A stretch of DNA of 42,521 nt. It comes from Patescibacteria group bacterium (GTDB lineage: Bacteria > Patescibacteriota > Microgenomatia > UBA1406 > GWC2-37-13). Below, piece after piece: positions 2 to 30,594 of this stretch; within the stretch, counting starts at the first letter, position 1; every line of letters begins with the position of its first letter. The DNA lies in the NCBI GenBank assembly GCA_038064655.1, contig JBBTSP010000001.1:1-42521 (forward strand), in the 5' to 3' direction. The notes under the pieces were generated by a model, which saw only the letters and a list, made by a program, of their open reading frames with translations, made no database searches and was not told the origin of the DNA. The position numbers and the translations under genes are program-made.

Positions 2-244
2 ATCGAAAAACCGGTATTGATCGATTGGGTTAACGGAGGTTATATGGTTTTTGATAAGCGAGTATTTAATTATTTTAAAATTGGTGAGACCGAACATCCG
101 GCTTTAAAAAGATTGTCAAATAACAAACAGTTATCTGCCAGTAAGCACGATGGGTTTTGGTTTTGCATGGATACCTATAAAGAAGTGGAAGATTTAAATA
201 AAATTTGGAAGACGGGCAAGGCGCCGTGGAAGATATGGAAATAA
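2..244 (+). CDS. rfbF: Glucose-1-phosphate cytidylyltransferase, 3' part (truncated by window edge)
   Basis: Frame is open from base 2 (IEKPVLIDWVNGGYMVF...). C-terminal HDGFWFCMDT and KAPWKIW motifs are typical of RfbF/DdhA. Overlaps the rfbG start. Confidence 0.9.
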   Translation: MEKPVLIDWVNGGYMVFDKRVFNYFKIGETEHPALKRLSNNKQLSASKHDGFWFCMDTYKEVEDLNKIWKTGKAPWKIWK

Positions 245-1185
245 AAAATAAAAACATCTTAGTTACCGGTGGAGCGGGTTTTGTTGGCGGACATTTGGTC
301 GAAGAATTAATTAAACTAAAAGCCAATGTAATTGTTGTTGATATCAATCTTGATAAACAGTCTTATCTATTTACAGAAAATCTTCATAAAAAATCCAAAG
401 TTATTAACCTGGACATCTGCAATTATAAAAAAATATCAGCGTTAATTAAAAAATATAAAATTGAATTTATTTTTCATTTGGCCGCCCAGGCTTTGGTTGA
501 GGAGGGTTATAAAAATCCAAAATATACTTTAGAAAATAATATCGTCAGTACAATCAACATTCTTGAGGCAGTGCGAATTAATCCACAAATCAAAGGGTTA
601 ATCGTTGCATCATCAGACAAAGCTTATGGAAAACTGAACAAAACCAAATATACCGAAGACTTCCCCCTCTCGGGTAACCATCCTTATGATACTTCAAAAT
701 CGGTCACAGATCTAATCAGTACGACTTATTTCAAAACCTATAAAATCCCGGTCGTTGTTACCCGATTTGGAAATATTTACGGCGAAGGCGATCTAAATTT
801 CTCCAGAATTATTCCGGGGATTATGAAATCTATAATTCAGAATTCAGAATTGAGAATTAGAAGCAATGGCAAGTATGTGAGGGATTATCTATATGTCAAG
901 GATGTCGTAAACGGCTATTTATTGTTAGCTGAAAATATTGAAAAAGTTAGGGGTGAGGCTTTTAATTTCGGATCAGATGAGACGCTAACCGTTTTGGATT
1001 TAATAAAATTAACTGGAAAAATTTTAAATAAGAAAATAAAATTTAAAATTTTAAATATGGCCTATAACGAAATCCCCTACCAGTCGCTTGATTATTCAAA
1101 GATAAAAAAAACTTTGGGTTGGAAACCAAAAGAAAGCATCAAATCAACAGCGAAGAAAATATTTGGGTGGTATAAATATAAATAA
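235..1185 (+). CDS. rfbG: CDP-glucose 4,6-dehydratase-like extended SDR
   Basis: TGGAGFVG Rossmann motif, HLAAQALV, SSDKAYG, YDTSK (YxxxK), TRFGNIYGEGD. Directly follows rfbF. ATG at 235 preferred over the non-ATG start at 205. Confidence 0.85.
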   Translation: MEIKNKNILVTGGAGFVGGHLVEELIKLKANVIVVDINLDKQSYLFTENLHKKSKVINLDICNYKKISALIKKYKIEFIFHLAAQALVEEGYKNPKYTLENNIVSTINILEAVRINPQIKGLIVASSDKAYGKLNKTKYTEDFPLSGNHPYDTSKSVTDLISTTYFKTYKIPVVVTRFGNIYGEGDLNFSRIIPGIMKSIIQNSELRIRSNGKYVRDYLYVKDVVNGYLLLAENIEKVRGEAFNFGSDETLTVLDLIKLTGKILNKKIKFKILNMAYNEIPYQSLDYSKIKKTLGWKPKESIKSTAKKIFGWYKYK

Positions 1186-2652: not shown

Positions 2653-3786
2653 TTATTTTGTTTTTTTCTTTTTTACCTTATTTACTATTTTGATGGGTGT
2701 CATATCGATTCCCCTTTGATATATTGATTTTTTAAGCTCTTCGTTATAAGCATAAGGACTGTCAATCATATCAATAAAAATTGGCTCATCTTTTTTAACA
2801 GATTTGATAAGTAATTCCCCATCCATCAGTTCACGACATGAAATTTGACCTTTCAAAAGAGGTACGGCCAAATATACATCTTCATCGCTTAATTTGTGAT
2901 TTACAGGTAAATCTTTTTTTACGTAAACACCTCTAATAAGTTGATCTAAATAAGCAATTTCTTTTTTTGGAGGGACTCTTTTATTATTTCCTGAGTTTCC
3001 GCACATTTCTCGAGCTTTGTTAAATGCTTTAAACCAAATATCAATCTGTTCTGGAAGCGAACAATAGGGCGATACTTCTTTGTCTGAAGTTTTGATATCT
3101 ATATGTCTTTCAAAAGTTCGAGCGCCTTTAGCATAAGCAACCAACATGGAAGAAGACCAATCGTGGTATTCATGAGTAGAGAAACCGATAACATGACCCG
3201 GATATCTTTCTTTTAAAAAGTCTATTTGATTTAACTCAAGTTCATTATCTTCCGAAGGATATAATGAGACGCAGTGATTAATAGCAAAGGGAATATTTCT
3301 ATTTTCAAAAAATTTAACCAGATCATCCATATCCTTTAATGAAGATCCTCCGGTTGATGCTATGACTGGTTTTTTGGTTTTAGCAATTTTTTCAATAAGA
3401 ATCCAATCATTAATATCGGAACTGGCTAATTTTATGATCTCAATTCCAAGTTCTGTGCAAAGATCAACCGACCTTTCGTCAAAGGGAGTAGCCATAGGGA
3501 TACAACCATTTTTTTTAATCGAGTTAATCATAATTTCATAATCATCATCTGACATTTGAGTGGATAAAGTTTTTTTTATATACCTCACATCGGTTCTATT
3601 TTTATATTTTTTATGAATGAAATTATTTACATCCCTGAATTGAAGTTTGATTGCGGCCCGGACGCTATTGAATCGAACTATTTTTGAAAAATCCCCTATT
3701 ATTTTTAATCCCCTATTTAAATCACCCCAGTGATTATTAGCTAATTCTAAAACGAATAGGTCATCAAAAATTGTTTTATTGTTCAT
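2653..3786 (-). CDS. NeuB-family PEP-dependent ulosonic acid synthase (divergent) with C-terminal SAF-like domain
   Basis: ELANNHWGD, IKLQ, ATPFD, KLASSD, STGG, HCVSLYP, GFSTH and FERH match the NeuB motif order, with non-canonical residues (usual SDH, EKH). Confidence 0.85.
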   Translation of the reverse strand: MNNKTIFDDLFVLELANNHWGDLNRGLKIIGDFSKIVRFNSVRAAIKLQFRDVNNFIHKKYKNRTDVRYIKKTLSTQMSDDDYEIMINSIKKNGCIPMATPFDERSVDLCTELGIEIIKLASSDINDWILIEKIAKTKKPVIASTGGSSLKDMDDLVKFFENRNIPFAINHCVSLYPSEDNELELNQIDFLKERYPGHVIGFSTHEYHDWSSSMLVAYAKGARTFERHIDIKTSDKEVSPYCSLPEQIDIWFKAFNKAREMCGNSGNNKRVPPKKEIAYLDQLIRGVYVKKDLPVNHKLSDEDVYLAVPLLKGQISCRELMDGELLIKSVKKDEPIFIDMIDSPYAYNEELKKSIYQRGIDMTPIKIVNKVKKKKTK

Positions 3787-3857
3787 ATATAAATATTTGA
3801 TAAATTTATAGGATAATTTTTATCACAATATTTTTATAATGTCAACAGATTTAGATT

Positions 3858-4736
3858 TTACTGAAGCGATTTAATAATAAAATTATGAATTGATTCAACT
3901 TTTAAATTGGTAAAAGTAAAGGGAAGATGACTATCGATTAATATTCCTCGGTCGTTACCTTCAGGCATATTTCCAAAAACAGCCACTTGTTCATCTTTTA
4001 AATTCAATTTTTTAATAATCGTTTTTAGCGCATAAAGTTTTGGATCAATTTTAAATGAGCGGCTGATTTGTAAAAATACATCATCCCCTTTTACGACTGA
4101 AAATTTATTGTCTAAATTTTGACTTATTTTATCTTTAAATAAATTAATAATTTTTTTATGGCTTTTTATATTATTAGGTAAAATAAAGGCAACTTTCGCT
4201 TCTTCCGAAAAGCAAATTCCTTTATACAATTTATTTTCTTCAATAAAATTATTAGGAATCAATTTTAACCAATTTTTTTTCAAAAATGATTTATGAATCT
4301 TTATTCCTAAATCATTTAATTCTGACGAAGTTATTTTTAAATCTAAATAAATTTTTTTACCTAATTTCATAATTATTTTAGCCTCTTCAAAGGTAAGGGC
4401 ATTATCATAAATTTTGAATAATCCTTTATTTGAATATTGATATAATATTGACCCATTTCCACCACCAATAAATATTGGTTTTATATTTTGATTTTTTTTA
4501 TAAAATTTTTCAAAATTTTTAATATGCAAGTCAAAAAATGATGAGCAACGGGCAGATAATATTAAACAAAATCTTTTTTTTAACAAAACCTTTTTAATTA
4601 ATAAAAATGCTTTTTGATGATTGAATTTTTTGTCTCCTATATCATAAATAGTTCCATCATAGTCAAAAACATAAAGCTTGATTTTATTTTTTATTTTTTT
4701 AGCTATTTTAGATGTATCAACTAATTTTATTTTCAT
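3858..4736 (-). CDS. HAD-superfamily hydrolase (IIB-like), probable phosphatase
   Basis: Motif I FDYDGT, motif II LSAR, motif III Lys (DPK), motif IV variant FGNMPEGND. Confidence 0.7.
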   Translation of the reverse strand: MKIKLVDTSKIAKKIKNKIKLYVFDYDGTIYDIGDKKFNHQKAFLLIKKVLLKKRFCLILSARCSSFFDLHIKNFEKFYKKNQNIKPIFIGGGNGSILYQYSNKGLFKIYDNALTFEEAKIIMKLGKKIYLDLKITSSELNDLGIKIHKSFLKKNWLKLIPNNFIEENKLYKGICFSEEAKVAFILPNNIKSHKKIINLFKDKISQNLDNKFSVVKGDDVFLQISRSFKIDPKLYALKTIIKKLNLKDEQVAVFGNMPEGNDRGILIDSHLPFTFTNLKVESIHNFIIKSLQ

Positions 4737-4777
4737 AGAATATGAATTGATACTGGTATTATAGTATAATTCTACAT

Positions 4778-6586
4778 ATGCAATCAGATATTGTTAAAAT
4801 CTCCGATTATGTTATTGATTATTTAGTCTCCCTTGGCATTAAAAATATATTCCTCATTTCTGGCGGCGGATGTATTCATTTAATTGATTCGGTTGGAAAA
4901 AATAAAAAAATAAAATTCATTTGCAATCACCACGAACAAGCCTCTGCGATTGCCGCCGAAGCTTATTCGCGTGTGACCGAGAAAATAAGCGCTTGTTTGG
5001 TGACAACTGGTCCGGGAAGTACAAATACTCTAACGGGATTAATCGGGGCCTGGCTCGATTCAATTCCAATGATTTTTATATCCGGTCAAGTAAAAAGGGA
5101 AACAATCGCCGATTATTCTAAATTACGTCAGATAGGAGATCAGGAAATAAACATTATTGATATGGTAAAACCGGTGACAAAGTATGCTGTGACTATTTTC
5201 AAGGAAGAGGAAATATCCTATCACATGGAAAAGGCTGTGTACTTGGCAACTCATGGCAGGCCAGGACCTGTTTGGATTAATATCCCGCTTGATATTCAAG
5301 GAGCAAAAATTCAAAAATCTTTACTAAAACATTTCAGTCAAAAAGAAATTGAAAAAACTATCATCAACCAAAAGGAACTAAAAAAAGAAGTTGAATTTAT
5401 CATTGAAAAAATTAAAAAAGCAAAACGCCCCTTACTTTTTGTAGGAAACGGGGTAAGATTGTCCGGAGCCCAAAAAGAACTTTTAAATTTAATTTCTTTG
5501 CTGAAGATCCCGGTTGTCACCGGTTTTGCTGGTTTTGATATGATCTCTTCCTCAAATCCTTATTTTGCTGGTCGACCGGGAACAATCGGTCAACGATCCG
5601 GAAATTTTGCCGTCCAAAATTCAGACCTGTTACTGGTAATTGGTTCTAAATTAAATATCAGGATGATTGGATATGATTTTAAATCTTTTGCCAGAGGCGC
5701 ATACAAGATAATGGCAGATATAGATAAGGAAGAAATGAGTAAGCCAACTCTTTCGATTGATAAAAAAATACTGTCTGATGCAAAAGATTTTATAAATGAA
5801 ATGATTATTCAATTAAAAAATTACCCAATCAGATTATCAATAGAAAATTGGATAACTAAAACTAAATATTGGAAAAAAAAATATCCAACAGTTTTGCCAC
5901 AGTATTGGCAAGAAAAAAAAGTTAATCCTTATTGTTTCATTGATACTTTGTCAAAATATCTAAACAAAAATGATGTAATAGCCGTATCAAATGCCACAGC
6001 GGCAATATGTACTTATCAAGCGATTCGTTTTCCGCAGGGCTTAAGAATAATAAATAATTCAGGATGTGCCGCGATGGGTTATGGACTTCCGGCCGCAATA
6101 GGCGCAAGCGTTGCCAACAAAAAAGGTAGAACAATCTGCCTTGAAGGTGATGGAAGTATTCAAATGAATGTTCAAGAATTTCAAACGATAGTTCATAACA
6201 AATTACCACTTAAAATATTTGTTTATAATAATAAGGGTTATGTCTCAATACGATTAACACAAAACGGATTGTTTGATGGAAGGTTAGTTGCCTCAAGCGA
6301 GGGCAGTGGGGTAAGTTGTCCCGACGTTATCAAAATAGCCAAAGCTTATGGAATTCATACAGAAAGGATTGTCAGTCATAAAGGTATGGATCAGATTGTT
6401 AAAAAAGTTTTGTCATATAAAGGTCCAGTCGTATGCGAAATAGTTGTTTCTCCGAATATGCAGTTTATGCCGAAGTCGGCCAGTATGCAGTTAAAAGATG
6501 GATCATTTGTTTCTCGTCCGCTTGAAGACATGGCCCCTTTCTTATCGAGAGAAGAATTAAAAGATAATATGTATATTTCACTATGA
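4778..6586 (+). CDS. ThDP-dependent enzyme 1 (acetolactate synthase-like, YerE-type sugar-branching carboligase)
   Basis: HHEQ catalytic Glu, TTGPGSTN, WLDSIP, RPGPVW, GDGS...NNKGY ThDP motif, RPLEDMAPFL tail. Sugar-cluster context and no small regulatory subunit. Confidence 0.85.
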   Translation: MQSDIVKISDYVIDYLVSLGIKNIFLISGGGCIHLIDSVGKNKKIKFICNHHEQASAIAAEAYSRVTEKISACLVTTGPGSTNTLTGLIGAWLDSIPMIFISGQVKRETIADYSKLRQIGDQEINIIDMVKPVTKYAVTIFKEEEISYHMEKAVYLATHGRPGPVWINIPLDIQGAKIQKSLLKHFSQKEIEKTIINQKELKKEVEFIIEKIKKAKRPLLFVGNGVRLSGAQKELLNLISLLKIPVVTGFAGFDMISSSNPYFAGRPGTIGQRSGNFAVQNSDLLLVIGSKLNIRMIGYDFKSFARGAYKIMADIDKEEMSKPTLSIDKKILSDAKDFINEMIIQLKNYPIRLSIENWITKTKYWKKKYPTVLPQYWQEKKVNPYCFIDTLSKYLNKNDVIAVSNATAAICTYQAIRFPQGLRIINNSGCAAMGYGLPAAIGASVANKKGRTICLEGDGSIQMNVQEFQTIVHNKLPLKIFVYNNKGYVSIRLTQNGLFDGRLVASSEGSGVSCPDVIKIAKAYGIHTERIVSHKGMDQIVKKVLSYKGPVVCEIVVSPNMQFMPKSASMQLKDGSFVSRPLEDMAPFLSREELKDNMYISL

Positions 6587-7449
6587 ACAAAATAAAAAAA
6601 ACAGTTTTCATTACCGGAGCGGGAGGGTTTATTGGAAAAAATCTTACAGAGCAGTTAAGTAAAAAATATAATTTATTAACTCCTGGTCATAAAGATTTGG
6701 ATCTATTGGATGAAAAAGCGGTTAATGATTTTTTTAAGAAAAATAAAATTGACGTCGTTATTAATTGCGCGGTCATCGGAGGAAGCCGAAAAGAAGAACA
6801 TGTTGATTCTTCCCTATTAGGAAACTTAAGAATTTTTTTTAATCTTTTAAAAAACAAAAATAAATACAAAAAAATGATTCATTTTGGGTCAGGAGCGGAA
6901 TATGACAAAAGCAAACCCATTATTCAAGTTAAAGAAACCGATCTGGGCAATACAATCCCACAGGATGAATACGGTTTTTTTAAATACATCTGTTCAAAAT
7001 ACATCGAGAAAGAAAAAAATATTGTTTGCATTAGAATCTTTGGATTATTTGGCAAATATGAGGACTATCGTTACAGGTTTATTTCAAATGCGATTGTCAA
7101 TAATTCAAGCGGGCTTCCAATAACCATGAACCAAAACGTATTTTTTGACTATGTTTATATAAATGATTTTATTAGGATCGTTGATCACTTTATAAATCAT
7201 AAAGCTAAATATAAATTTTATAATTCAGGGACAGGAAATAAGATAGATATATTAACAATTGCTAAAAAAATAAATTTAATTTCTGATAAAAAATCAAAAA
7301 TAATAATAAAAAATAAGGGATGGAATAATGAATATACTTGTGATAATAAAAGATTAAAAAATGAATTGAAAAAATTTAAATTTACTTCTTTTGACGAATC
7401 TCTTAAGGAATTATATAGATGGTATAAAGAAATATGGAAAAGAAATTAG
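6583..7449 (+). CDS. NAD-dependent epimerase/dehydratase/reductase (extended SDR)
   Basis: TGAGGFIG, GSGAEY, YGFFK (YxxxK). ATGA overlap with ThDP enzyme 1. Confidence 0.85.
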   Translation: MNKIKKTVFITGAGGFIGKNLTEQLSKKYNLLTPGHKDLDLLDEKAVNDFFKKNKIDVVINCAVIGGSRKEEHVDSSLLGNLRIFFNLLKNKNKYKKMIHFGSGAEYDKSKPIIQVKETDLGNTIPQDEYGFFKYICSKYIEKEKNIVCIRIFGLFGKYEDYRYRFISNAIVNNSSGLPITMNQNVFFDYVYINDFIRIVDHFINHKAKYKFYNSGTGNKIDILTIAKKINLISDKKSKIIIKNKGWNNEYTCDNKRLKNELKKFKFTSFDESLKELYRWYKEIWKRN

Positions 7450-8552
7450 GCGATTTATTATCAAAAACTGCTAATCACTACAAAGAATTAATATTAAAAA
7501 ATAATCCGAAATTTAATTTTAAAAAACCTGTTGTCTTATTCGGCGCTGCCAAACTATCACCTTATTTTATTAAATATTTTGAAAGCAAAAGAACAAAAAT
7601 TCTGTCTTTAACAGATAATGACAAAAGTAAAATTGGAAAAAAATTATTAGGATTAACGATTATTAGTAAAAAAAATTTACTTAAAAAATTTGGTAAAAAT
7701 ATACAGATAGTCGTCGCATCAGTCCACTACGACGAAATAATTAAAGAGCTTAAAAAAATGGGATTTAATAATGTGTTTAATCCAATGTTTTTTTTCACAT
7801 TAGATCACAAGGATTTTAATTTATTGACTTGGAGGAACAACATTGATTTAATCTTTAAAAATAAGAAAAAAATAAAATCGGCGTTTGCATTGTTTAAAGA
7901 TGAAAAGTCAAAAAAGATATATATAGAAATACTCAGATTTAGATTAGCATTTGATCAATCAATTTTCAGCAAGATTAAAGATGATAAAACAGAGTATTTT
8001 GATGAAAAAATAATTAAATTATCCCCAAAAGAAATATTTCTCGACGGCGGAGCCTATGATGGAGATACTGTCAAAATGTTTATTGAAAAATCTAAAAATA
8101 TTTTTAATAAAATATATGCTTTTGAGCCAGATGATAGTAATTATATTCAACTAAGTAAATATATAAACAAACTTTCTGATAAACGAATAATCAGTTATAA
8201 GATCGGATTAGGTGAAAAAAAAGAAAAATTATATTTTACAAATGAGGGAAATCTTCAATCTAAAATTACAAGCAAAAGTAAAACATTAATAAAAATATTG
8301 CCGATAGATTTTTTGAAAGATATTATTTTTACATATATAAAGTTAGATATAGAGGGATTTGAGAAGCAGGCATTGTTGGGCGCAAAAAAAATGATAAGTA
8401 AATTCAAACCAAAATTAGCAGTTTGTTTATATCATAATATTGAGGATTTATGGGATGTTCCTTGCTTAATAAATACGATTAACAAAAATTACAAATTTTA
8501 TATACGTCATTATACAAATTTTTTATTTGATACAATTTGCTATGCTGTCTAA
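7434..8552 (+). CDS. FkbM-family O-methyltransferase
   Basis: FLDGGAYDGD, AFEPD, IKLDIEGFE, KPKLAVCLYH. N-terminal Rossmann-like extension. Confidence 0.85.
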   Translation: MEKKLGDLLSKTANHYKELILKNNPKFNFKKPVVLFGAAKLSPYFIKYFESKRTKILSLTDNDKSKIGKKLLGLTIISKKNLLKKFGKNIQIVVASVHYDEIIKELKKMGFNNVFNPMFFFTLDHKDFNLLTWRNNIDLIFKNKKKIKSAFALFKDEKSKKIYIEILRFRLAFDQSIFSKIKDDKTEYFDEKIIKLSPKEIFLDGGAYDGDTVKMFIEKSKNIFNKIYAFEPDDSNYIQLSKYINKLSDKRIISYKIGLGEKKEKLYFTNEGNLQSKITSKSKTLIKILPIDFLKDIIFTYIKLDIEGFEKQALLGAKKMISKFKPKLAVCLYHNIEDLWDVPCLINTINKNYKFYIRHYTNFLFDTICYAV

Positions 8553-8557
8553 CATCT

Positions 8558-9628
8558 ATGAATAAAATTAGAGTTTGTCCAATTTGTTTAAATAGTAAAA
8601 GCGAATTATTACATATCCAAAAATTTGCTGATCATTTTGAACATAAAATAGTCAGCTGTACTTATTGTGATTTTATTTATGTTAATAATGCGCCTTCTCA
8701 AAAATATTACGATGCATATTACAAAAATCAATCAAAATATGAAGGAACAAGACAACATGAAATGCATGATAAATTTACTTTTGAAACATTTAGTTTTATT
8801 TTGAAAAAATATATACTCAAAGATGCAGAGATTCTTGATGTAGGGTGTTCAACAGGAAAATTACTTTATTTTATTAAGCAAAAAAGTTATAGAAATTTGT
8901 TAGGAATTGAGCCGGCTCCGGAATGTAAAATAATTGCAAAAAAAAATTATGATATCACGGTTAAGACATCAACTTTAGATAACTTTAAAACCAAAAAAAA
9001 ATACGATTTAATAATATTTTCCCAAGTCTTCGAACATTTAGTTGATCTGAGAAATACCATTATTAAAGGGAGATCTTTGTTGAAAGATGAAGGAATGATT
9101 TTTATCGGCGTTCCTGATGCAGGGAATTTCTATAAAGAATTTGACGAGCCGTATGGAGAATTTTCAACTGAGCACATTAATTTTTTTACAAAACAGTCTT
9201 TATCAATGTTGCTTAACGGATTTGAAAATGTTTATATAAAAACTGATAATTTTGCCCTTCTATCTCTTTGGTTGAAAAAAAATAAAAAGGAAGCAAGCAT
9301 AAACAAATATATAAATTTATCTCAATTGAAAATGAAAAAAATATTAAAAACTATTAATTCCTTGCCAAAAAATACAATTGTTTGGGGAGTTGGAGCTTTA
9401 ACTCAAAGACTGTTAAAAACTACCAATATAAAAAATAAAGTTTTTAAATTTGTTGATAGTAATATAAATTTAATAGGAAAAAAAATTGATAGTATTAATA
9501 TAATTTCTCCTAATGAATTAAAATACTATAATAATCCAGTATTGATTTGTTCGTTTAGATTTAAAAAAGAAATTATAATGTATATTCGTAAAAACAAAAT
9601 TAAAAATAAAATTTTAACTTTTAAATAA
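8558..9628 (+). CDS. Class I SAM-dependent methyltransferase with N-terminal zinc ribbon (NDP-sugar methyltransferase-like)
   Basis: CPIC...CTYC, LDVGCSTG, GIEP, VFEHL, EHINFF, C-terminal WGVG domain. ATG at 8558. Confidence 0.8.
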   Translation: MNKIRVCPICLNSKSELLHIQKFADHFEHKIVSCTYCDFIYVNNAPSQKYYDAYYKNQSKYEGTRQHEMHDKFTFETFSFILKKYILKDAEILDVGCSTGKLLYFIKQKSYRNLLGIEPAPECKIIAKKNYDITVKTSTLDNFKTKKKYDLIIFSQVFEHLVDLRNTIIKGRSLLKDEGMIFIGVPDAGNFYKEFDEPYGEFSTEHINFFTKQSLSMLLNGFENVYIKTDNFALLSLWLKKNKKEASINKYINLSQLKMKKILKTINSLPKNTIVWGVGALTQRLLKTTNIKNKVFKFVDSNINLIGKKIDSINIISPNELKYYNNPVLICSFRFKKEIIMYIRKNKIKNKILTFK

Positions 9629-9629
9629 T

Positions 9630-10565
9630 ATGAAGAAAAAAATTTCGATTGTAGTTCCATGTTTTAATGAAGAAGCGAATATTGAATCAACATATAAAAA
9701 AATAGAATCTGTTTTAAATAAACTTCATCTATATGATTTTGAATATATTATTGTTGATAATGGTAGCGAAGATAAAACAAGGAATCTAGTTAAGAAGTTA
9801 ATAAAAAAGGATAAGCGAATCATAGGAATATTTTTGTCCAGGAATTTTGGTCCAGAAGCGTCAATAAATGCTGCTTATACATATGCAACCGGAGAAGCAA
9901 TAATAGGAATTGCTGCTGATTTGCAAGATCCTCCAGAACTAATTCCTCAATTTATAAAAAAGTGGGAACAAGGAAATGATATTGTATTTGGGATATATAC
10001 AAAAACTGAAGACCCCATATTTATTACTTGGTTAAGAAGAATATTTTATAAAATATTTAAATATATTTCGAATATAGATGTCCCAGTAAATGCCACCGGA
10101 TTTGGTTTAGTTAGTAGAAAAGCACTAAACGCATTTTTGTCACTTCCAGAAAAATTTAGATTTAGTAGGGGGCTCTTATCATGGGTTGGTTTCAAGCGAG
10201 ATTATGTTTATTACAATAAAAATCGAAGAGAGAGAGGAAAAAGTTCTTATAATATCTTTGATTATGTGAAACATGCTGAGAGAGGAATCTTCGGATTTTC
10301 ATATTTGGTATTAGATTTAATGGTTTATGGAGGGTTCATTTTGGTATTTTTTTCATTTTTATTTATTATTGGATATTTATACACAGTTTTTGTGATAGGC
10401 AATCCTATCAATGCTTCAATCCCAATCATGTTGGGGATAGTTTTTTTTGGAGGAATTCAATTACTGGCGATTTCTATTATAGGCAAATACATCCAAGTGA
10501 TCGTTGAGGAAACGAAAAATAGACCCATCTACATAGTTGACGAAACAATTAACGTTAAAAAATAA
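9630..10565 (+). CDS. GT2 polyprenyl-phosphate glycosyltransferase (GtrB/ArnC-like)
   Basis: SIVVPCFNEE, VDNGSEDKT, LSRNFG, ADLQDPPE, two C-terminal hydrophobic helices, ETKNRPIYIV. Confidence 0.9.
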   Translation: MKKKISIVVPCFNEEANIESTYKKIESVLNKLHLYDFEYIIVDNGSEDKTRNLVKKLIKKDKRIIGIFLSRNFGPEASINAAYTYATGEAIIGIAADLQDPPELIPQFIKKWEQGNDIVFGIYTKTEDPIFITWLRRIFYKIFKYISNIDVPVNATGFGLVSRKALNAFLSLPEKFRFSRGLLSWVGFKRDYVYYNKNRRERGKSSYNIFDYVKHAERGIFGFSYLVLDLMVYGGFILVFFSFLFIIGYLYTVFVIGNPINASIPIMLGIVFFGGIQLLAISIIGKYIQVIVEETKNRPIYIVDETINVKK

Positions 10566-10573: not shown

Positions 10574-12352
10574 TTATGGCCGATTGACTTTTTTAAATTC
10601 ATTTCGATCTAAGAATGGAAACATATCTTCATACGGTTTAGCAACTAAAGTTCCATCAGGTCGTTTTTCTGATGCTATTCTTGGAATTAAGAGTTGCCAG
10701 TCTGGTGTCATCACATCACAAATGACTGGACCTTTAAAATCAAGAACCTCTTTGACTTTTTTTTCAACTTCATCTATTGAACTGATTCTCACTCCCTTGA
10801 TTCCATAGGCCATGGCAATTTTAAGAGAATCTGGACACCAGACGCCATTTTTTGCGCTTTCTCCCATGAGTCTTCCTTCCATAAAATTTTTTTGGGTATG
10901 TCTGATCAACAAATAACCGTTATTATTAAAAATAAAAACTTTTATGGGAAGATTATTATATTTGATCGTGGCAAATTCTTGAATGTTGAATTGGAGACTA
11001 CCGTCCCCTGTTATCACAATCGTATTTGCCCGATTATTTGCCAAACAGGCGCCGATTCCGGCCGCCCAATAACCCATAGAAGAAATACCACCAGTAGTCA
11101 AAAAGCGCTGATTCTTTTTTATTTTCCATGTTTGGCAGGCGACATGAAAACAGGAACCCGTATCAACCAAAATCATATCTTTATCAGATGCAAGTTTGGA
11201 TAATTTTTCGGTAAAATAATAAGAATTAATCGGTTTTTCCTTTTTATATTCCGGCAAAACCACCTGATATTTATTTTTCCAAAAATTGCATCTTTTAATC
11301 CAGTTATTATAATTGGAAAACTTATACTTGGTTAATTGCTTTAATAATTCTTTTAAAAATAATTTGATATCGGAGTGGATTTTCAGGAAAATGTCAACTC
11401 CTGGTTTTTCGAGTTCCTCAATGTCAATATCGACAACAACTTTTTTAGCATTCTTACCAAATTCTTTTGAGTTATGACCAACTGTTGAAGTTGAAAGTCT
11501 TGAGCCAACGGCTAAGATAAAATCAGAGTTTTGAATGGCAAAATGAGCGGCTCTTTCCCCATAAGTGCCTGGTCGACCAACATATAATTTATTGTCACTA
11601 TCGATAAGATCAATTCCAAGTCTTGAGGTAATCACTGGCATTTGAAGTTTTTTGACAGTTTCATCAAATTCTTTGAAAGCATTTGCCAACCTGATTCCCT
11701 GGCCAACAAAAAGAATTGGACGTTTTGACCTTGATAGTATTTTTAATGTCTCTTTTACCTTTAAAGAAAGATTATTATCTTCATCACTGCTTTCTTCAGG
11801 GACAAATTCTTTTAAAAGTTTCTCAGGAACTTTCATTCTTTGAATATCGAGAGGAACTTCGATCCAAACCGGGCCCGGTCGGCCATTTAAAGCTAAATAA
11901 TAAGCTTTTTGCATATAATATTGTATTAAAGAAGGATCGTCGACGGTAACAAAATACTTTGTGACCTTTTCAACGATCGGCTTGATATTTATTCCCTGAA
12001 TTCCATATTGTCTAATCTTGGTTTTTTGCTGATACTGGACGTAAGATAAAGCAGACTGGCCGGAAATAACCATCATTGGAGCCGAATCAACCCAACCACC
12101 AACGACTCCATTCATGATGTTGATGGCGGCCGGTCCGGCAGTAACTAAAGTAACTCCTAATTTTCCAGTAATGCGACCATAAGCATCAGCTGACATTCCC
12201 AAAGCCTGTTCATGGTGACCACAAATATATTTCAATTTTTTGTTACGAAAAACCGCATCATTCAAAAACATAGCCTGACCACCGGTAATCATGAATACAG
12301 TATCAACCCCTTTTGAGGACAAAAATTTAAAGATATAGTCGCTGACAGTCAT
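10574..12352 (-). CDS. ThDP-dependent enzyme 2 (YerE/ErwE-type sugar-branching carboligase)
   Basis: HHEQ, TAGP, WVDS, RPGPVW, GDGS...NNNGY, KPYEDMFPFL. Last gene of the GT2-dmpF-dmpG unit. Confidence 0.85.
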   Translation of the reverse strand: MTVSDYIFKFLSSKGVDTVFMITGGQAMFLNDAVFRNKKLKYICGHHEQALGMSADAYGRITGKLGVTLVTAGPAAINIMNGVVGGWVDSAPMMVISGQSALSYVQYQQKTKIRQYGIQGINIKPIVEKVTKYFVTVDDPSLIQYYMQKAYYLALNGRPGPVWIEVPLDIQRMKVPEKLLKEFVPEESSDEDNNLSLKVKETLKILSRSKRPILFVGQGIRLANAFKEFDETVKKLQMPVITSRLGIDLIDSDNKLYVGRPGTYGERAAHFAIQNSDFILAVGSRLSTSTVGHNSKEFGKNAKKVVVDIDIEELEKPGVDIFLKIHSDIKLFLKELLKQLTKYKFSNYNNWIKRCNFWKNKYQVVLPEYKKEKPINSYYFTEKLSKLASDKDMILVDTGSCFHVACQTWKIKKNQRFLTTGGISSMGYWAAGIGACLANNRANTIVITGDGSLQFNIQEFATIKYNNLPIKVFIFNNNGYLLIRHTQKNFMEGRLMGESAKNGVWCPDSLKIAMAYGIKGVRISSIDEVEKKVKEVLDFKGPVICDVMTPDWQLLIPRIASEKRPDGTLVAKPYEDMFPFLDRNEFKKVNRP

Positions 12353-12353
12353 A

Positions 12354-13409
12354 TTATAATAATGATTCTATCTGATAATCTTCATTTTTAAACTCTTTTT
12401 TCTGTTTGAGAAAATTGGCCACATCGATAATAATATCTTCTTGTCCGCCGACGACCTTTCTTCTACCTAATTCTTTGAGAATATCTCGTACATCGACACC
12501 AAATTTGATAGCCGCTTTTTCCGCATGGGGAGCAAAGCCGGAAAAGACTCCGGCAAGACCACTGGTGAGAGTTATATAATTAATTTCAGGAGATTTTTTC
12601 ATTAATTTAGCAATAATATTTTCACTATTATCCATTAATTGATAAAGATCAAGTCCTGTTTTATAACCTATTTTTTCAAGAACAGCAACAATTACTTCAA
12701 GTTGGCAGTTTCCAGCCCCAGCTCCAAGTCCACGGGAACAGGCGTCGATAATCTTTGCTCCGGATTCAACCGCAATTAAAGAATTGGCAATGGCCATGCC
12801 CAAATTATTATGAGCGTGAAAACCAACCTCAACTTTCAAGCCCTTGACTAAAGTTGAAACTTTTTCGGTCACATCCTGAGGAAGATATGTTCCCGCTGAG
12901 TCCATCAACATTACCCCACTAGCTCCATATTCCTCCATCAGTTTTGCCTGGGCAAGAAGTTCCGACTCCGAAATCATATGAGACATCATTAAGACTCCAT
13001 AAGTTTTTATATTATTTTTTACAGCATATTGAATATGCTGACGAGTGATATTGGCTTCAGTACAGTGGCAGGCGACCATCATCACTTCAATCCCCGCTTT
13101 AATTGCCGGAGCAATATCATTTTTGATGGTTCCAAAACCAGGAATAAGAAAAGCACCGAGCTGGGTTTTTTTTAATTGTTTTTTGGCAGTTTTTAGCATT
13201 TCCTGATCTGACAATAATGAAATTCCCAGTTGAAGAGAAGAAGCGCCCAGTCCATTACCATGTCCAACGATAAGAATTTTTGTCCCAGCTAATTCAGCCC
13301 CCCTAGCATATTGAGTAATATCTTGAGCGGTAAGTTGGTGTTTCATGGCGTGGGATCCGTCACGAAGTGTTGAATCAACGATTAAAATTTCTTTATTATT
13401 ATTTTTCAT
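12354..13409 (-). CDS. dmpG: 4-hydroxy-2-oxovalerate aldolase (DmpG/MhpE)
   Basis: DSTLRDGSH, HGNGLG, HCTEA, GFHAHNNLG, GAGAGN, C-terminal VGGQEDIIIDVA communication domain. Confidence 0.92.
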   Translation of the reverse strand: MKNNNKEILIVDSTLRDGSHAMKHQLTAQDITQYARGAELAGTKILIVGHGNGLGASSLQLGISLLSDQEMLKTAKKQLKKTQLGAFLIPGFGTIKNDIAPAIKAGIEVMMVACHCTEANITRQHIQYAVKNNIKTYGVLMMSHMISESELLAQAKLMEEYGASGVMLMDSAGTYLPQDVTEKVSTLVKGLKVEVGFHAHNNLGMAIANSLIAVESGAKIIDACSRGLGAGAGNCQLEVIVAVLEKIGYKTGLDLYQLMDNSENIIAKLMKKSPEINYITLTSGLAGVFSGFAPHAEKAAIKFGVDVRDILKELGRRKVVGGQEDIIIDVANFLKQKKEFKNEDYQIESLL

Positions 13410-14304
13410 GTTTTTTTGTTTTTAATTTTCGTCTGGCGTATTCTTCGGCTACGGCAATAGCTGCACAGTTAATTATATCTAAATTTCCGGCGTAAATTGG
13501 AAGATAATCTCCCCTTCCGACTACTTCAATCATAGTTGTTAATTTACCATCGTCAAAGATGGGTTCTAAAACAAGTTTATATCCAGGGACATATTGCTGA
13601 ATTTTTTTAACTACTTTTTTTATTTCTTCTGTAATTAATTCTATTTTGGGATTTTTCATTTTGGCATAAATAGTATTATGCATCAATATTGGCGGATCGG
13701 CCGGATTAAGATTAACGATTGCTTTTGCTTTTTTTACACCGCTAAAATACATCAAAGCTTCGCTGGTTGTCTGGGTATACTCATCGATATTATTTCGTGT
13801 CCCAATGCCTGCCGATTTTGAGGAGATACTGGAAACAATCTCAATATATTCAGTATCCGGATTAATTTTCATAATTGCCTGTGCGATGGGTATAGTTGCT
13901 TGTCCTCCGCAACTTACCATATTAATATTAAATTCTTTTAAAGATTTATTAAGATTAATAATTGGTATACACATCTTTCCGATTCTCGATGGGGTCATAT
14001 CAATGACAAATTTTTTCAGTCTTTTTAATATGGGGGCATTATACTGATGGGCTTCGGCTGAGGTTGCGTCAAACACTATTTCACAAAGTCCAGGACTTTT
14101 TTCAATAGCGCGAATTGATTCAAATGAAGTTTTGACCCCAAGTTTTTTAGCTCTGGCAATCCCTTTTGACTCAGGATTGTGTCCGGTAAAAATTCCACAT
14201 TCCAGTACGGGCGATCTTAAAATTTTGGTTAATAAGTCTGAGCCGATATTTCCCGTGCCGATTATACCAACTTTTATTTTTTTTGAAGCGGTTCTTTCCT
14301 TCAT
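13399..14304 (-). CDS. dmpF: Acetaldehyde dehydrogenase (acylating), DmpF/MhpF
   Basis: IIGTGNIGSDL, FDATSA, NMVSCGGQATIP (catalytic Cys), GTRNNIDEY, YAGNLDII. Adjacent to dmpG. Confidence 0.92.
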   Translation of the reverse strand: MKERTASKKIKVGIIGTGNIGSDLLTKILRSPVLECGIFTGHNPESKGIARAKKLGVKTSFESIRAIEKSPGLCEIVFDATSAEAHQYNAPILKRLKKFVIDMTPSRIGKMCIPIINLNKSLKEFNINMVSCGGQATIPIAQAIMKINPDTEYIEIVSSISSKSAGIGTRNNIDEYTQTTSEALMYFSGVKKAKAIVNLNPADPPILMHNTIYAKMKNPKIELITEEIKKVVKKIQQYVPGYKLVLEPIFDDGKLTTMIEVVGRGDYLPIYAGNLDIINCAAIAVAEEYARRKLKTKKHEK

Positions 14305-14307
14305 TGT

Positions 14308-15243
14308 TTAAAAATTAACCTTATTTTTAATAATAAAAGATGGACGGGCTTTGACTTCATCATAAATACGGGCTAAATATTCGCTGATAATTCCAAGGAC
14401 AAAAAAAAGAATTCCAAATAAGCTCAAGGTTAGTATGATCATTGTTGCGGCTCCGGGTGCTTCTCGTCCATGGACGAGAAATAAATAAAGATAAAAAATA
14501 ATCATAAAAAATGAGACGACGGTAATTCCGATTCCAAGAAAAGTGACAAATCTTAAAGGTAAATAAGAGAAAGAAAAGATACCGTTGAGGGCGACCTTAA
14601 GAGCTGTTTTAAAATCAGCTTTTGATTCTCCGGCAAATCTGTTTGCCCGGTTAAATGAAATACCAATATGTTTGAAGCCGGTCCACATAATCAAGCCTCT
14701 TAAATATTTATTCTGTTCCCCCATTTGGTTGATTGTTTGATAAACCCTTTTATCAATTAATCGAAAGTCGCTGGCATTTTCAGGGAACATGTTTTTTGTA
14801 AATAAATTAATTATTTTATAAAATAAAACAGAGCTGACATTTCTAAAAAAACCGGCAGTTCTTTTTTTGACCTGGCCATAAACAATTTCATACCCGGCTT
14901 CCCATTTTTCGATAAACTTGGAAATAAGATCAATCGGCTCTTGAAGATCAGCCATCATGATAACGCAGGCGTCTCCTGTCACAAAATGCATACCGGCCGC
15001 AATGCCGCCGTCGCAACCAAAGTTTTTAGAAAGCTGAAGTATCTTTAATCGTCGATCTTTTCGGGAAAATTTTTGTAAGAGAACAAAAGAATTATCAACA
15101 GAGCCGTGTTCAACAAATACGACTTCAAAATCATAAGCGGGATTTTTATTCATAAAGTTTGTCAGTTGTTTAATTAATTCAGGGATTCCAAGAGATTCAT
15201 TATAAATCGGAATGACAACAGAGATAAGTTTTTTAGATTTCAT
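14308..15243 (-). CDS. GT2 polyprenyl-phosphate glycosyltransferase (GtrB-like)
   Basis: SVVIPIYNE, LSKNFG, ADLQEP, SDFRLID, two C-terminal TM helices, EVKARPSFII. Start 15243 chosen because the ATG at 15252 overlaps a TATAAT box. Confidence 0.88.
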   Translation of the reverse strand: MKSKKLISVVIPIYNESLGIPELIKQLTNFMNKNPAYDFEVVFVEHGSVDNSFVLLQKFSRKDRRLKILQLSKNFGCDGGIAAGMHFVTGDACVIMMADLQEPIDLISKFIEKWEAGYEIVYGQVKKRTAGFFRNVSSVLFYKIINLFTKNMFPENASDFRLIDKRVYQTINQMGEQNKYLRGLIMWTGFKHIGISFNRANRFAGESKADFKTALKVALNGIFSFSYLPLRFVTFLGIGITVVSFFMIIFYLYLFLVHGREAPGAATMIILTLSLFGILFFVLGIISEYLARIYDEVKARPSFIIKNKVNF

Positions 15244-15288
15244 TGTTCTCATTATACAATATCATTATTTTTTTGGTAAAATAATTTC

Positions 15289-16530
15289 ATGTTTATTCCC
15301 GGCAAGACCTACATACCAGTCTCAGGAAAAGTTTTTGATAAAGAAGAGATAAATAATGCCATTGAAGCGGCCAAAGACGGCTGGTGGACTGAAGGAAGAT
15401 GGGCTAAACAGTTTGAATCAGATTTTAAAAAATTTCTTGGTGTCAATTACGTTTCACTTGTTAATTCCGGTTCTTCAGCTAATTTAGTTGCATTGGCCTG
15501 TTTAACTTCAACAGTATTTGGCGAACGGCAATTAAAACCGGGTGATGAATATATTACTACATCAGTCGCTTTTCCAACGACTGTTAATCCCGGACTTCAA
15601 TATGGTTTAAAACCGATTTTTATTGATGCGGAACTTGATACTTTAAACATTGACGTTGATCAAATTGAGAAAGCGATTACAAAGAAGACGAAATTAATCA
15701 TGGTCGCTCATACTTTAGGTAAACCATATAACTTAAAAAAAATCATGAAATTGGCAAAAAAATATAATCTTTGGGTGATTGAAGATTGCTGTGATGCATT
15801 GGGTAGTAAATATAAAGGTAAGATGGTTGGCACTTGGGGAGATATAGCAACACATAGTTTTTACCCAGCGCACATAATCACGATGGGAGAGGGAGGCGCT
15901 GTGACAACCCAAAACCCATTAATTCATCGGTCAATTCGGCAGTTTCGCGATTGGGGTCGGGACTGTTGGTGTGATACGGGAAAAGATGACACCTGCAGAA
16001 AAAGATTTGGTTGGAAATTGGGAGAGCTACCTCAAGGTTATGATCATAAATATATCTATTCTCAGATTGGCTATAATTTAAAATCAACTGACTTTCAAGC
16101 CGCCATTGGCTGTGCCCAACTAAAAAAACTCCCCGATTTTATCAAAAAAAGACAAGAAAATTATAAAATTCTTTATAATTTTTTTAGTCAATATAAAAAA
16201 TATTTTATTTTGATGAAAGAGGATAAAAATGAGGAAGTGAGCTATTTTGGATTTCCGGCAATTGTTAAACCTCACTCCCCTTTTACCCGTAATCAACTGA
16301 CAGAATATCTGGAAAATAATAAAATCGGCACAAGAAATATTTTTTCCGGCAATCTCCTCCGTCATCCGGCTTACCTGAAATTAAAAAATAAATTTAAAAT
16401 CATCGGTAATCATAAAAATGCCGATTTAATTATGAACAATGCTTTTTGGTTGGGAGTTTGGCCGGGAATTAATGATGAAATGATAACGTATATTAAGGAA
16501 AGAATATTTAATTTTCTTCAAATTTATTAA
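15289..16530 (+). CDS. rfbH: CDP-4-keto-6-deoxyglucose 3-dehydrase (E1, RfbH/DdhC)
   Basis: NSGSSANL, FPTTVNP, EDCCDALGS, SFYPAH (His in place of the Schiff-base Lys), RDCWC...TC...YDHKY Fe-S ligand motif. Confidence 0.93.
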   Translation: MFIPGKTYIPVSGKVFDKEEINNAIEAAKDGWWTEGRWAKQFESDFKKFLGVNYVSLVNSGSSANLVALACLTSTVFGERQLKPGDEYITTSVAFPTTVNPGLQYGLKPIFIDAELDTLNIDVDQIEKAITKKTKLIMVAHTLGKPYNLKKIMKLAKKYNLWVIEDCCDALGSKYKGKMVGTWGDIATHSFYPAHIITMGEGGAVTTQNPLIHRSIRQFRDWGRDCWCDTGKDDTCRKRFGWKLGELPQGYDHKYIYSQIGYNLKSTDFQAAIGCAQLKKLPDFIKKRQENYKILYNFFSQYKKYFILMKEDKNEEVSYFGFPAIVKPHSPFTRNQLTEYLENNKIGTRNIFSGNLLRHPAYLKLKNKFKIIGNHKNADLIMNNAFWLGVWPGINDEMITYIKERIFNFLQIY

Positions 16531-17278: not shown

Positions 17279-17280
17279 AC

Positions 17281-17982: not shown

Positions 17983-18174
17983 ATGGATACGAAGAAAATA
18001 ACAAATATTTATAAAGAAACATCGGCATTAGTTTGGAAGGAAGCGAATCTTTTTATGGCAAAATCCCTTATCGTTATTGTTCCTAATCACAAACAGATAG
18101 CCCACGGAACCCTTGAAAGTATATTAAAACAATCAGATATGAGTTATCTTGAATTTGAATCTTACTATAAATAA
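17983..18174 (+). pseudogene. hicB-N/hicA-C chimeric remnant
   Basis: C-terminal VIVPNHKQIAHGTLESILKQS is a HicA signature. N-terminal ALVWKEANLFMAK resembles HicB first strands. The HicA GSH catalytic motif is absent. Confidence 0.6.
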
Positions 18175-24241: not shown

Positions 24242-24242
24242 T

Positions 24243-26054: not shown

Positions 26055-26060
26055 TCGAAA

Positions 26061-28340: not shown

Positions 28341-28348
28341 GCAAAATT

Positions 28349-30589: not shown

Positions 30590-30594
30590 TAACT

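What the first reader, a model, noticed from the sequence alone, without database searches (positions are those of the whole stretch)
2653..10565. NeuB-type synthase + HAD possibly repurposed to feed a ThDP branching enzyme
Seen: neuB-like and HAD genes are divergent (41-bp gap) from ThDP1-SDR-FkbM-MTase-GT2. No NeuA/CMP-transferase or NeuC is in the window, and the NeuB motifs are altered (STH, ERH). Established: NeuB products are 3-deoxy-2-ulosonates, which are 4-hydroxy-2-oxo acids. Inference: NeuB condenses PEP with an aldose phosphate, HAD dephosphorylates, ThDP1 grafts the polyol chain, the SDR reduces and two MTases methylate. That would give a long-branch methylated sugar reminiscent of the Mycobacterium gastri dimethoxy-heptyl sugar, and a non-sialic role for a NeuB subfamily.
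Basis: inference. Interest (0 to 1): 0.85.

Follow-up and report, generated by a model that had tools for sequence, protein, structure and literature searches.

The report
NeuB-like enzyme supplies branched-sugar side chain
A relative of sialic-acid synthase sits beside a thiamine-dependent sugar-branching gene here and in many unrelated bacteria, and it likely makes a seven-carbon sugar acid that the thiamine enzyme would graft as a six-carbon side chain onto a surface sugar, a likely new job for this enzyme family within a known kind of pathway.

Summary
The genes are as described, but ERH is the normal NeuB motif and the divergent layout is lineage-specific. The core idea holds. This NeuB subfamily (clade A) keeps the PEP/metal site and lacks the N-acetyl-binding Arg314. 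It has a YerE-type ThDP gene nearby in 65 of 65 fully flanked loci and NeuA in 0 of 65 (canonical NeuB controls: 1 and 13 of 20). The genome shows no NeuA or NeuC. The gastriose (C7 branch) analogy is probably wrong. Clade-A NeuB fills the aldolase slot of cassettes laid out like the Mycobacterium marinum caryophyllose cluster (kinase, AroB-like, SDR, aldolase, ThDP). Among 11 such loci found without a NeuB query, 4 have NeuB-A, 7 an HpcH aldolase, none both. So the donor is likely a 3-deoxy-heptulosonate from PEP plus erythrose(-4-phosphate), probably D-ribo, giving a C6 branch. The HAD step is weak (15 of 65 loci; atypical motif). No enzymology exists. Verdict: new variant of a known kind.

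The parts
2..244 (+). 3' end of rfbF (glucose-1-phosphate cytidylyltransferase), cut by the contig start; the 5' part is on contig C47
   Evidence: tblastn
205..1185 (+). RfbG-like CDP-glucose 4,6-dehydratase; makes the 4-keto acceptor (inferred)
   Evidence: TIGR02622 best hit, below cut-off
2653..3786 (-). Clade-A NeuB-like synthase; predicted PEP + erythrose(-4-P) to 3-deoxy-heptulosonate(-7-P)
3858..4736 (-). HAD-IIB hydrolase, atypical (FGN in motif IV, C-terminal gap); candidate phosphatase for the donor or the product
4778..6586 (+). ThDP1, YerE/JanthE-type carboligase partnered with NeuB-A
   Evidence: best PDB hits 8rph (JanthE) E 4e-140 and 5ahk E 9e-84; tree
6583..7449 (+). Extended SDR, YerF/ErwF-like branch ketoreductase (inferred)
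   Evidence: scheme in PMC9306805
7434..8552 (+). FkbM-family methyltransferase
8537..9628 (+). Class I SAM methyltransferase with N-terminal CxxC...CxxC; O- versus C-methylation unresolved
9630..10565 (+). GT2a, GtrB/PgfS/ArnC-type; predicted to load the sugar on polyprenyl phosphate
   Evidence: NF047588 E 2e-71 and NF007986, both below cut-off
10574..12352 (-). ThDP2, ErwE-type carboligase of a second (erwiniose-type) module
12354..13409 (-). DmpG/ErwI 4-hydroxy-2-oxovalerate aldolase
   Evidence: TIGR03217 above cut-off
13399..14304 (-). DmpF/ErwJ acylating acetaldehyde dehydrogenase
   Evidence: TIGR03215 above cut-off
14308..15252 (-). GT2b, second GtrB-type transferase
15289..16530 (+). 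RfbH (C3-deoxygenation; gives the 3,6-dideoxy acceptor)
   Evidence: NF011936 above cut-off

Best explanation
The NeuB-like protein keeps the PEP and metal site but lacks the N-acetyl-binding arginine, and it likely condenses PEP with erythrose 4-phosphate (or erythrose) to a 3-deoxy-heptulosonate, predicted to be the D-ribo epimer of DAHP, which the YerE-type ThDP1 would decarboxylate and add as a six-carbon branch to C4 of CDP-4-keto-3,6-dideoxyglucose. Shown: gene content, residue conservation, co-occurrence, slot exchange with an HpcH aldolase, and ThDP1 grouping with NeuB-A/HpcH partners. Inferred: RfbF/G/H make the acceptor; the phosphate is removed before or after ligation (by the HAD here, otherwise a housekeeping phosphatase); the SDR reduces the branch ketone; two MTases methylate; GT2a loads the sugar on polyprenyl phosphate for transfer outside the cell. 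This genome lacks the AroB-like/SDR pair that in caryophyllose-type clusters likely removes the terminal oxygen. The product would therefore be a caryophyllose skeleton ending in CH2OH (C12H24O9 before methylation, hand arithmetic). ThDP2 with DmpG/DmpF likely makes an erwiniose-type C4 branch in parallel.
For: (1) E14, K47, Q49, K119, S122, S144, Y176, S203, H205, E226 and H228 match N. meningitidis E25, K53, Q55, K129, S132, S154, Y186, S213, H215, E234 and H236 and are invariant in 81 of 81. Arg314 aligns to I/V (46/34; no Arg) and Asp247 to S/A/T. R51 and R68 and K72 are invariant new cations. Arg314 binds the N-acetyl and R314A is inactive (PMC11339185, PMC6795526, passages). (2) ThDP in 52 of 52 GTDB and 13 of 13 metagenome full-flank loci, NeuA in 0 of 65, GtrB-type GT2 in 60 of 65; canonical NeuB controls ThDP 1 of 20, NeuA 13 of 20. 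(3) M. marinum MMAR_2328-2335 are annotated sugar kinase, 3-dehydroquinate synthase family, SDR, aldolase/citrate lyase, ThDP, GT2, RfbF, RfbH (supplement tables of PMC12395582), and 2331-2333 mutants lack caryophyllose (PMC9306805). Five loci carry kinase + AroB-like + SDR + ThDP with NeuB-A instead of the aldolase (L070, L148, L161, L226, L230). (4) Of 11 AroB-like+ThDP loci found by ThDP or TIGR04425 queries, 4 have NeuB-A, 7 HpcH, none both or neither. HpcH appears in 0 of 160 NeuB-A loci. L255 and L256 have the same gene order with the slot swapped. L161 and L235 share 81-82% identity in ThDP and both SDRs but carry NeuB-A versus HpcH. (5) No active-site position separates NeuB-A of AroB+ loci (11) from AroB- loci (61); the window protein is 93% identical to AroB+ L147. 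(6) The AroB-like proteins are closer to DHQ synthases (E 2e-48) than to DOIS or ValA (4.5e-27, 1e-25). Three genomes with NeuB-A + AroB-like show no class I DAHP synthase (3 of 4 tested). (7) The caryophyllose side chain is made synthetically from D-digitoxose (PMC7821131), and ErwE and MMAR_2332 take the (R)-4-hydroxy donor while MyGE takes (S). (8) Transketolase and enolase are in the genome.
Against: No enzyme was assayed. The HpcH proteins were matched to MMAR_2331 only by family name and neighbours, not by sequence. The AroB-like proteins beside NeuB-A and beside HpcH differ (39% identity for L161 vs L235), which could mean different substrates. AroB-like + SDR pairs also occur without ThDP in another cassette (11 loci), so they are not specific to caryophyllose. 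HAD occurs even in AroB+ loci (5 of 8), which blurs the simple 'HAD or AroB' picture. The window HAD looks atypical. A few clade-A genes are orphans (L199, L204, L214) and L220 has both ThDP and a NeuA-like gene. The ribo assignment rests on recalled product stereochemistry of NeuB-family enzymes; no paper I read states it. The model gave no ligand geometry, so the phosphate site at R51/R68/K72 is untested. Loci are not phylogenetically independent.
Confidence: 0.6

Rival explanations
1. Same architecture, longer donor: NeuB-A uses a pentose 5-phosphate (or hexose 6-phosphate) to make a KDO-like or KDN-like acid, giving a gastriose-like C7 (or C8) branch that the two MTases O-methylate.
For: The co-occurrence data fit any chain length. 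RpiB is in the genome. The NeuB-cupin sister clade has a weak isomerase-like domain, which suggests varied aldoses.
Against: Clade-A NeuB is interchangeable with the aldolase of caryophyllose-type cassettes and is sequence-indistinguishable between AroB+ and AroB- loci. DHQ-synthase chemistry fits a 7-phosphate C7 acid (established mechanism, recalled). MyGE prefers the opposite gamma-carbinol.
Confidence: 0.22
2. C7 donor but arabino: NeuB-A is an ordinary-stereochemistry DAHP synthase, and the branch is the epimer of the caryophyllose chain, or AroB+ loci cyclise it to a quinate-type ring.
For: The AroB-like proteins keep the DHQ-synthase motifs by eye, and 3 of 4 AroB+ genomes show no class I DAHP synthase.
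Against: Dehydroquinate is not a 2-oxo acid and could not feed the ThDP enzyme. Characterised NeuB-family products have the opposite C4 configuration to DAHP (recalled).
Confidence: 0.1
3. NeuB-A makes a free ulosonic acid for CMP activation by a NeuA missing from the assembly, and ThDP1 uses pyruvate (yersiniose).
For: The genome is 90% complete. Sister clade-B genes pair with NeuA in 4 of 10 loci. L220 has NeuA. 4 of 5 larger clade-A genomes have some PF02348 gene elsewhere, which may be KdsB.
Against: NeuA is in 0 of 65 and ThDP in 65 of 65 full-flank loci, with ThDP within 300 bp in 39 of 65. In clade B, ThDP and NeuA are mutually exclusive (6 ThDP-only, 4 NeuA-only).
Confidence: 0.05
4. 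The ThDP genes are acetolactate synthases, or NeuB feeds ThDP2 rather than ThDP1.
For: The best NCBIfam label is acetolactate synthase, below cut-off.
Against: A true AHAS above cut-off lies in an ilv cluster on C44. ThDP2 falls in a clade (SH-aLRT 100) with DmpG/F partners, while ThDP1 falls in a 20-row clade (99) with 15 NeuB-A and 4 HpcH partners. L001 has NeuB-A and ThDP1 without ThDP2.
Confidence: 0.03

Closest known systems
Caryophyllose cluster of Mycobacterium marinum (MMAR_2328-2335)
   Same: YerE-type ThDP, GT2, RfbF, RfbH; the same kinase/AroB-like/SDR cassette occurs around NeuB-A in related loci; predicted C7 donor and C6 branch.
   Different: The donor is made by a PEP-dependent NeuB-fold synthase instead of an HpcH pyruvate aldolase. 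The window lacks AroB-like, classical SDR and kinase, and has a HAD and two MTases, so the branch is predicted to keep its terminal oxygen.
Erwiniose (ErwI/J/E/F) and yersiniose (YerE/F) pathways; unifying scheme of Steitz et al. 2022 (PMC9306805)
   Same: 2-oxo-acid donor, ThDP C4-branching of CDP-4-keto-3,6-dideoxyglucose, SDR reduction. The window's ThDP2-DmpG-DmpF module matches ErwE/I/J by family.
   Different: All donor suppliers named in the paper are pyruvate aldolases; none is a NeuB-family enzyme. The aldehyde proposed there for caryophyllose is preformed, with no role given to the AroB-like gene (main text read in parts 1-2; scheme images not visible).
Gastriose cluster of M. gastri (MyGE/MygI/MygF)
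   Same: Long polyol branch on a 3,6-dideoxyhexose with methylation.
   Different: C7 branch, an aldolase as supplier, and the opposite (S) gamma-carbinol preference. Sequence relation of MyGE to ThDP1 was not tested.
NeuB/LegI/PseI nonulosonate synthases (N. meningitidis NeuB, PDB 1xuu)
   Same: Fold (Foldseek E 1e-24) and PEP/Mn residues.
   Different: Lacks Arg314 and Asp247, about 20% identity, no NeuA/NeuC, and the product is predicted to be consumed by decarboxylation rather than CMP-activated.
PDB 3g8r, Chromobacterium violaceum 'SpsE' (uncharacterised)
   Same: Best sequence and structure match (E 8e-65; 6e-35); shares STHE, KLQxR and the loss of Arg314.
   Different: It has the sister clade-B motifs (KRF for KKT); its gene context was not checked.
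JanthE (PDB 8rph)
   Same: Closest solved relative of ThDP1 and ThDP2; accepts ketones and longer donors.
   Different: CDG versus GDG motif; physiological substrate unknown.

Membership tests
NeuB superfamily (alpha-carboxyketose synthase fold) | TIM barrel + SAF/AFP domain with PEP and metal residues (E25, K53, Q55, K129, S132, S154, S213, H215, E234, H236) | tested here: met
N-acetylneuraminate/Leg/Pse synthases (TIGR03569, TIGR03586) | Score above the equivalog cut-off | tested here: not met
   113 vs 400 and 112 vs 340 bits
N-acetylneuraminate/Leg/Pse synthases | Arg314 (N-acetyl binding) and Asp247 conserved | tested here: not met
   I/V and S/A/T
N-acetylneuraminate/Leg/Pse pathway | Cognate NeuA and NeuC-type precursor genes | tested here: not met
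   genome 90% complete
Acyl-branched sugar pathways (YerE-type) | YerE-like ThDP enzyme | tested here: met
   best PDB hits JanthE and 5ahk (YerE; name recalled)
Acyl-branched sugar pathways (YerE-type) | CDP-4-keto-3,6-dideoxyglucose genes (RfbF, G, H) | tested here: met
   the E3 reductase was not sought
Acyl-branched sugar pathways (YerE-type) | YerF-like NAD(P)H reductase | tested here: inconclusive
   An extended SDR follows ThDP1; not compared with YerF itself
Acyl-branched sugar pathways (YerE-type) | Pyruvate aldolase supplying the long donor | tested here: not met
   For ThDP1 the slot is held by NeuB-A; met for ThDP2 (DmpG)
Caryophyllose pathway proper | AroB-like + classical SDR + kinase + HpcH aldolase | tested here: not met
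   No AroB-like or FGGY hit in the genome; NeuB-A occurs with them in other genomes
Acyl-branched sugar pathways (YerE-type) | Demonstrated carboligation and product structure | not testable with these tools
   Needs assay and glycan analysis
HAD-IIB phosphatases | Motifs I-IV intact | tested here: inconclusive
   DYDGT and motif-III Lys kept; first motif-IV Asp is Asn in the window, L001 and L002; C-terminal gap only in the window copy

The most novel reading that the evidence does not exclude
Clade A is a widespread third route to a C7 3-deoxy-ulosonate: a sialic-acid-synthase-fold enzyme making 3-deoxy-D-ribo-heptulosonate 7-phosphate, the C4 epimer of DAHP, solely as a ThDP donor. Its interchange with the MMAR_2331-type aldolase also implies that the terminal methyl of caryophyllose comes from kinase + DHQ-synthase-like phosphate elimination (without cyclisation) + SDR reduction, not from a preformed 4-deoxytetrose.
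Probability: 0.4. Interest if true: 0.8.

Novelty: new variant of a known kind. Interest (0 to 1): 0.62.

Why it matters
It gives a testable function to a large, tightly conserved NeuB subfamily that databases label N-acetylneuraminate synthase or SpsE (311 and at least 494 confirmed stretches in the two collections). Counting such genes as evidence of sialic or nonulosonic acid is then wrong. It extends the acyl-branched sugar scheme with a PEP-driven, irreversible donor supplier. It suggests a specific role for the unexplained DHQ-synthase-like, SDR and kinase genes of the caryophyllose cluster. It predicts two different branched sugars in a 0.94 Mb genome. A ribo-selective PEP aldolase would also be a useful biocatalyst.

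Tried and rejected
The plasmid tblastn for the NeuB-like protein found no match. The promoter scan was at chance level. The HAD had no PDB relative. The second MTase gave only weak hits, with TcaB9 at E 0.005, so C- versus O-methylation stays open. Pfam and NCBIfam gave no family for the five large membrane proteins at 22400-32781; the Atlas gave DUF6311/DUF7024 leads for one. Transaldolase and class I DAHP synthase were not found in this genome; class II DAHP synthase was not searched. The 50% representative search showed that full-length clade A is essentially one cluster, followed by many proteins of about 500 aa, the length of the cupin-fused clade B; it added no context. The careful ThDP tree did not finish; the quick tree was used. 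I could not obtain the MMAR_2331 or R. palustris aldolase sequences, so their orthology with the HpcH proteins is untested. Literature searches listed no paper linking NeuB to YerE-type enzymes or naming a D-ribo-heptulosonate; none of the 15 papers listed contained YerE. Krug 2024 (survey of more than 200 YerE-like clusters), Lanza 2024, Alibaud 2014, van der Woude 2012, Sarkar 2011 and Rombouts 2009 were not held and may bear on novelty. No si/re-face statement was found. Rejected: 'ERH is altered'; 'divergence is meaningful'; 'HAD is a core partner'; 'ThDP = AHAS'.


Full report
Observation. The NeuB-like protein scores far below the NeuB and PseI equivalog cut-offs. The 937,584-bp, 90%-complete genome has one NeuB, no NeuA above cut-off and no NeuC. 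Two details fail. ERH is also the N. meningitidis motif. The divergent layout is found in only 17 of 136 related loci, against 107 with ThDP upstream on the same strand. The span is part of a larger cluster: rfbF (split over C47 and the window start), rfbG, rfbH, and a second module of GT2b, DmpF, DmpG and ThDP2.

The synthase. The closest structure by sequence and fold is the uncharacterised 3g8r, then the NeuB/PseI structures (model pLDDT 83.9). In 81 aligned sequences (window plus 80 GTDB loci, one truncated) the PEP and metal residues are invariant. The Arg314 position is I/V, Asp247 aligns to S/A/T, and R51, R68 and K72 are new invariant cations. Arg314 binds the N-acetyl group and R314A is inactive (PMC11339185 and PMC6795526, passages only). 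So the enzyme should still condense PEP with an aldose, but not an N-acetylated one (inference). A phosphate site at R51/R68/K72 is a guess. Full-length clade A is essentially one 50% cluster; a sister clade B carries a C-terminal cupin.

Context. I took the best 80 of 311 GTDB stretches and the best 80 of at least 494 metagenome stretches. A YerE-type ThDP gene lies nearby in 77 of 80 and 59 of 80. Most misses are short contigs or genes at a contig edge, but three are true orphans. With at least 8 kb on both sides: ThDP 65 of 65, GtrB-type GT2 60, extended SDR 49, RfbF or RfbH 48, MTase 44, any HAD 15, NeuA 0. Twenty high-scoring canonical NeuB loci chosen from a 301-genome phylum sample give ThDP 1 of 20 and NeuA 13 of 20 (NeuA detected with three queries, so possibly undercounted). 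Kin are not independent, but the loci span many phyla. In clade B, 6 loci have ThDP and no NeuA, and 4 have NeuA and no ThDP.

Which ThDP. Both ThDP proteins are closest to JanthE (8rph), and ThDP1 next to 5ahk; a true AHAS lies on C44. In a quick 74-row tree ThDP2 sits in a clade (SH-aLRT 100) of DmpG/F-linked enzymes. ThDP1 sits in a 20-row clade (99) with 15 NeuB-A, 4 HpcH and 1 unassigned partner (the careful search did not finish, and NeuB-A partners are not monophyletic overall). ThDP2-DmpG-DmpF matches ErwE/I/J of the erwiniose pathway (PMC9306805, parts 1-2 of the text read).

Reverse test and chain length. Of 25 YerE-like loci from 24 genomes of the same class, 3 have NeuB-A, 4 NeuB-B, 3 DmpG/F, 4 an HpcH-type aldolase and 11 other neighbours. 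An AroB-like gene with a classical SDR recurs in 8 of 160 NeuB-A loci. The supplement tables of PMC12395582 annotate M. marinum MMAR_2328-2335 as sugar kinase, 3-dehydroquinate synthase family, SDR, aldolase/citrate lyase, ThDP, GT2, RfbF and RfbH. Mutants in 2331-2333 lack caryophyllose. Five loci have the same kinase, AroB-like, SDR and ThDP set with NeuB-A in place of the aldolase. I then sampled TIGR04425 in four phylum samples. I fetched the 3 hits, 2 of the 17 hits (a third was already held as L235; the weaker hits were left out) and all 12 hits. Across loci found by ThDP or AroB-like queries, 11 have both genes: 4 with NeuB-A, 7 with HpcH, none with both or neither. Twelve have no ThDP in the stretch fetched, and 11 of these belong to a different cassette. 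HpcH occurs in 0 of 160 NeuB-A loci. L255 and L256 share gene order with only that slot changed. L161 and L235 have ThDP and both SDRs 81-82% identical but different donor modules, including AroB-like proteins only 39% identical. NeuB-A from AroB+ (11) and AroB- (61) loci are interleaved on a tree and alike at all key positions; none of the 22 differences between the window protein and AroB+ L147 is at a listed key position. The AroB-like proteins are nearer DHQ synthases than DOIS or ValA, and 3 of 4 tested genomes show no class I DAHP synthase. Together this says NeuB-A makes the same backbone as the caryophyllose aldolase: a C7 acid from a C4 aldose (inference; the link to MMAR_2331 is by family and neighbours, not sequence).

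Stereochemistry. The caryophyllose side chain is built synthetically from D-digitoxose (PMC7821131, passage), which is ribo (recalled). ErwE and MMAR_2332 select the (R)-4-hydroxy donor and MyGE the (S). From the recalled names of the products, NeuB-family acids have the C4 hydroxyl on the side that gives ribo with erythrose, and DAHP synthase gives the opposite, arabino. This would explain why large genomes do not simply borrow DAHP. No paper I could read states it.

Mechanism for this window. PEP + E4P (enolase and transketolase present) gives the heptulosonate phosphate. The phosphate is removed, and ThDP1 adds the C6 acyl unit to CDP-4-keto-3,6-dideoxyglucose. The SDR reduces, two MTases methylate, and GT2a loads polyprenyl phosphate, as proposed for DPM-like GT2s in mycobacterial LOS clusters (PMC4403928, passages). 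With no AroB-like or FGGY gene in the genome, the branch should end in CH2OH. The HAD step is the weakest: optional across loci, present also in AroB+ loci, and atypical here. The order of dephosphorylation and the type of methylation are open.

Comparison and novelty. It works like the acyl-branched sugar pathways, but its donor supplier is not the pyruvate aldolase that defines them. It has the NeuB fold but fails membership of the nonulosonate synthases. My searches listed no paper on the pairing; the 2025 review (PMC12247030, term search and section 2.1) has no NeuB mention. Krug 2024, Lanza 2024 and the original M. marinum papers were not held and could change this. PMC8208679 (passages and part of the discussion), PMC5706390, PMC9912281, PMC12531865, PMC12188165 and the SugarBase preprint were seen as passages only. 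Earlier scan notes report the same pairing in other genomes (consulted after my reading was formed); a keyword look-up for the AroB/caryophyllose link returned nothing.

Verdict. Confidence: donor-supply role about 0.9; C7 donor about 0.7; best explanation as a whole 0.6. New variant of a known kind; interest 0.62.

Noticed in passing
window 10574-15252 (-): Erwiniose-type module (GT2b, DmpF, DmpG, ThDP2) with no SDR of its own; it may share the SDR at 6583. The genome likely makes two branched sugars.
   Followed up: yes
L259-L264, L266-L269, L254: Separate recurring cassette without ThDP: AroB-like (mostly above the TIGR04425 cut-off) + classical SDR, usually with a GmhA-like SIS protein, GFO oxidoreductase, 2-hydroxyacid dehydrogenase and a cytidylyltransferase. 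It may make a CMP-activated 7-deoxy-heptulosonate; unexplained.
   Followed up: partly
L133-L135, L137-L139, L240, L246-L248: Sister clade B (NeuB + cupin with weak lyxose/mannose-isomerase hits) pairs with ThDP in 6 loci and NeuA in 4, never both. L133 is a triple fusion SDR-NeuB-cupin (863 aa).
   Followed up: partly
L220:5537-10123: Clade-A NeuB with HAD, ThDP, a NeuA-like gene and an unassigned 353-aa ORF that looks sialyltransferase-like by eye; the one exception to the no-NeuA rule.
   Followed up: partly
L199:6069-7157, L204:5022-6110, L214:3333-4421: Orphan clade-A genes in unrelated contexts.
   Followed up: no
L001:8429-9925, L013:5506-6957 and 9056-9847, L232:12797-13378: P-loop kinase-like and DapA-like aldolase genes, sometimes fused, sit between the HAD and NeuB-A; they may supply or recycle the aldose.
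   Followed up: partly
window 3858-4736: The HAD lacks about 20 residues near its C-terminus relative to the ortholog in L002, and has Asn at the first motif-IV Asp.
   Followed up: partly
window 22400-32781: Five large membrane proteins with no Pfam hit; two compared are 35% identical. DUF6311/DUF7024 leads. Candidate polyprenyl-dependent transferases for these sugars (inference).
   Followed up: partly
window 16508-17877 and 18173-18277: An AbiEi/AbiEii pair sits inside the glycan cluster, with a short rfbH-like fragment (66% over 35 aa) on its far side, which suggests an insertion.
   Followed up: no
window 1213-2454: AAA_14/DUF4143 ATPase between rfbG and the NeuB-like gene; absent at this place in L001.
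   Followed up: no
L001, L002, L007: Records titled Gammaproteobacteria carry cassettes 70-91% identical to this genome's, in similar gene context; possible mis-binning or transfer.
   Followed up: no
L234, L236, L244, L245, L249, L239, L251: YerE-like genes with yet other neighbours (DJ-1 + cupin + dehydrogenase; aminotransferase; split transketolase or E1), suggesting further donor types.
   Followed up: no
G000 contig C44 (L252): Branched-chain amino-acid cluster with a true AHAS, unusual for a genome under 1 Mb.
   Followed up: partly
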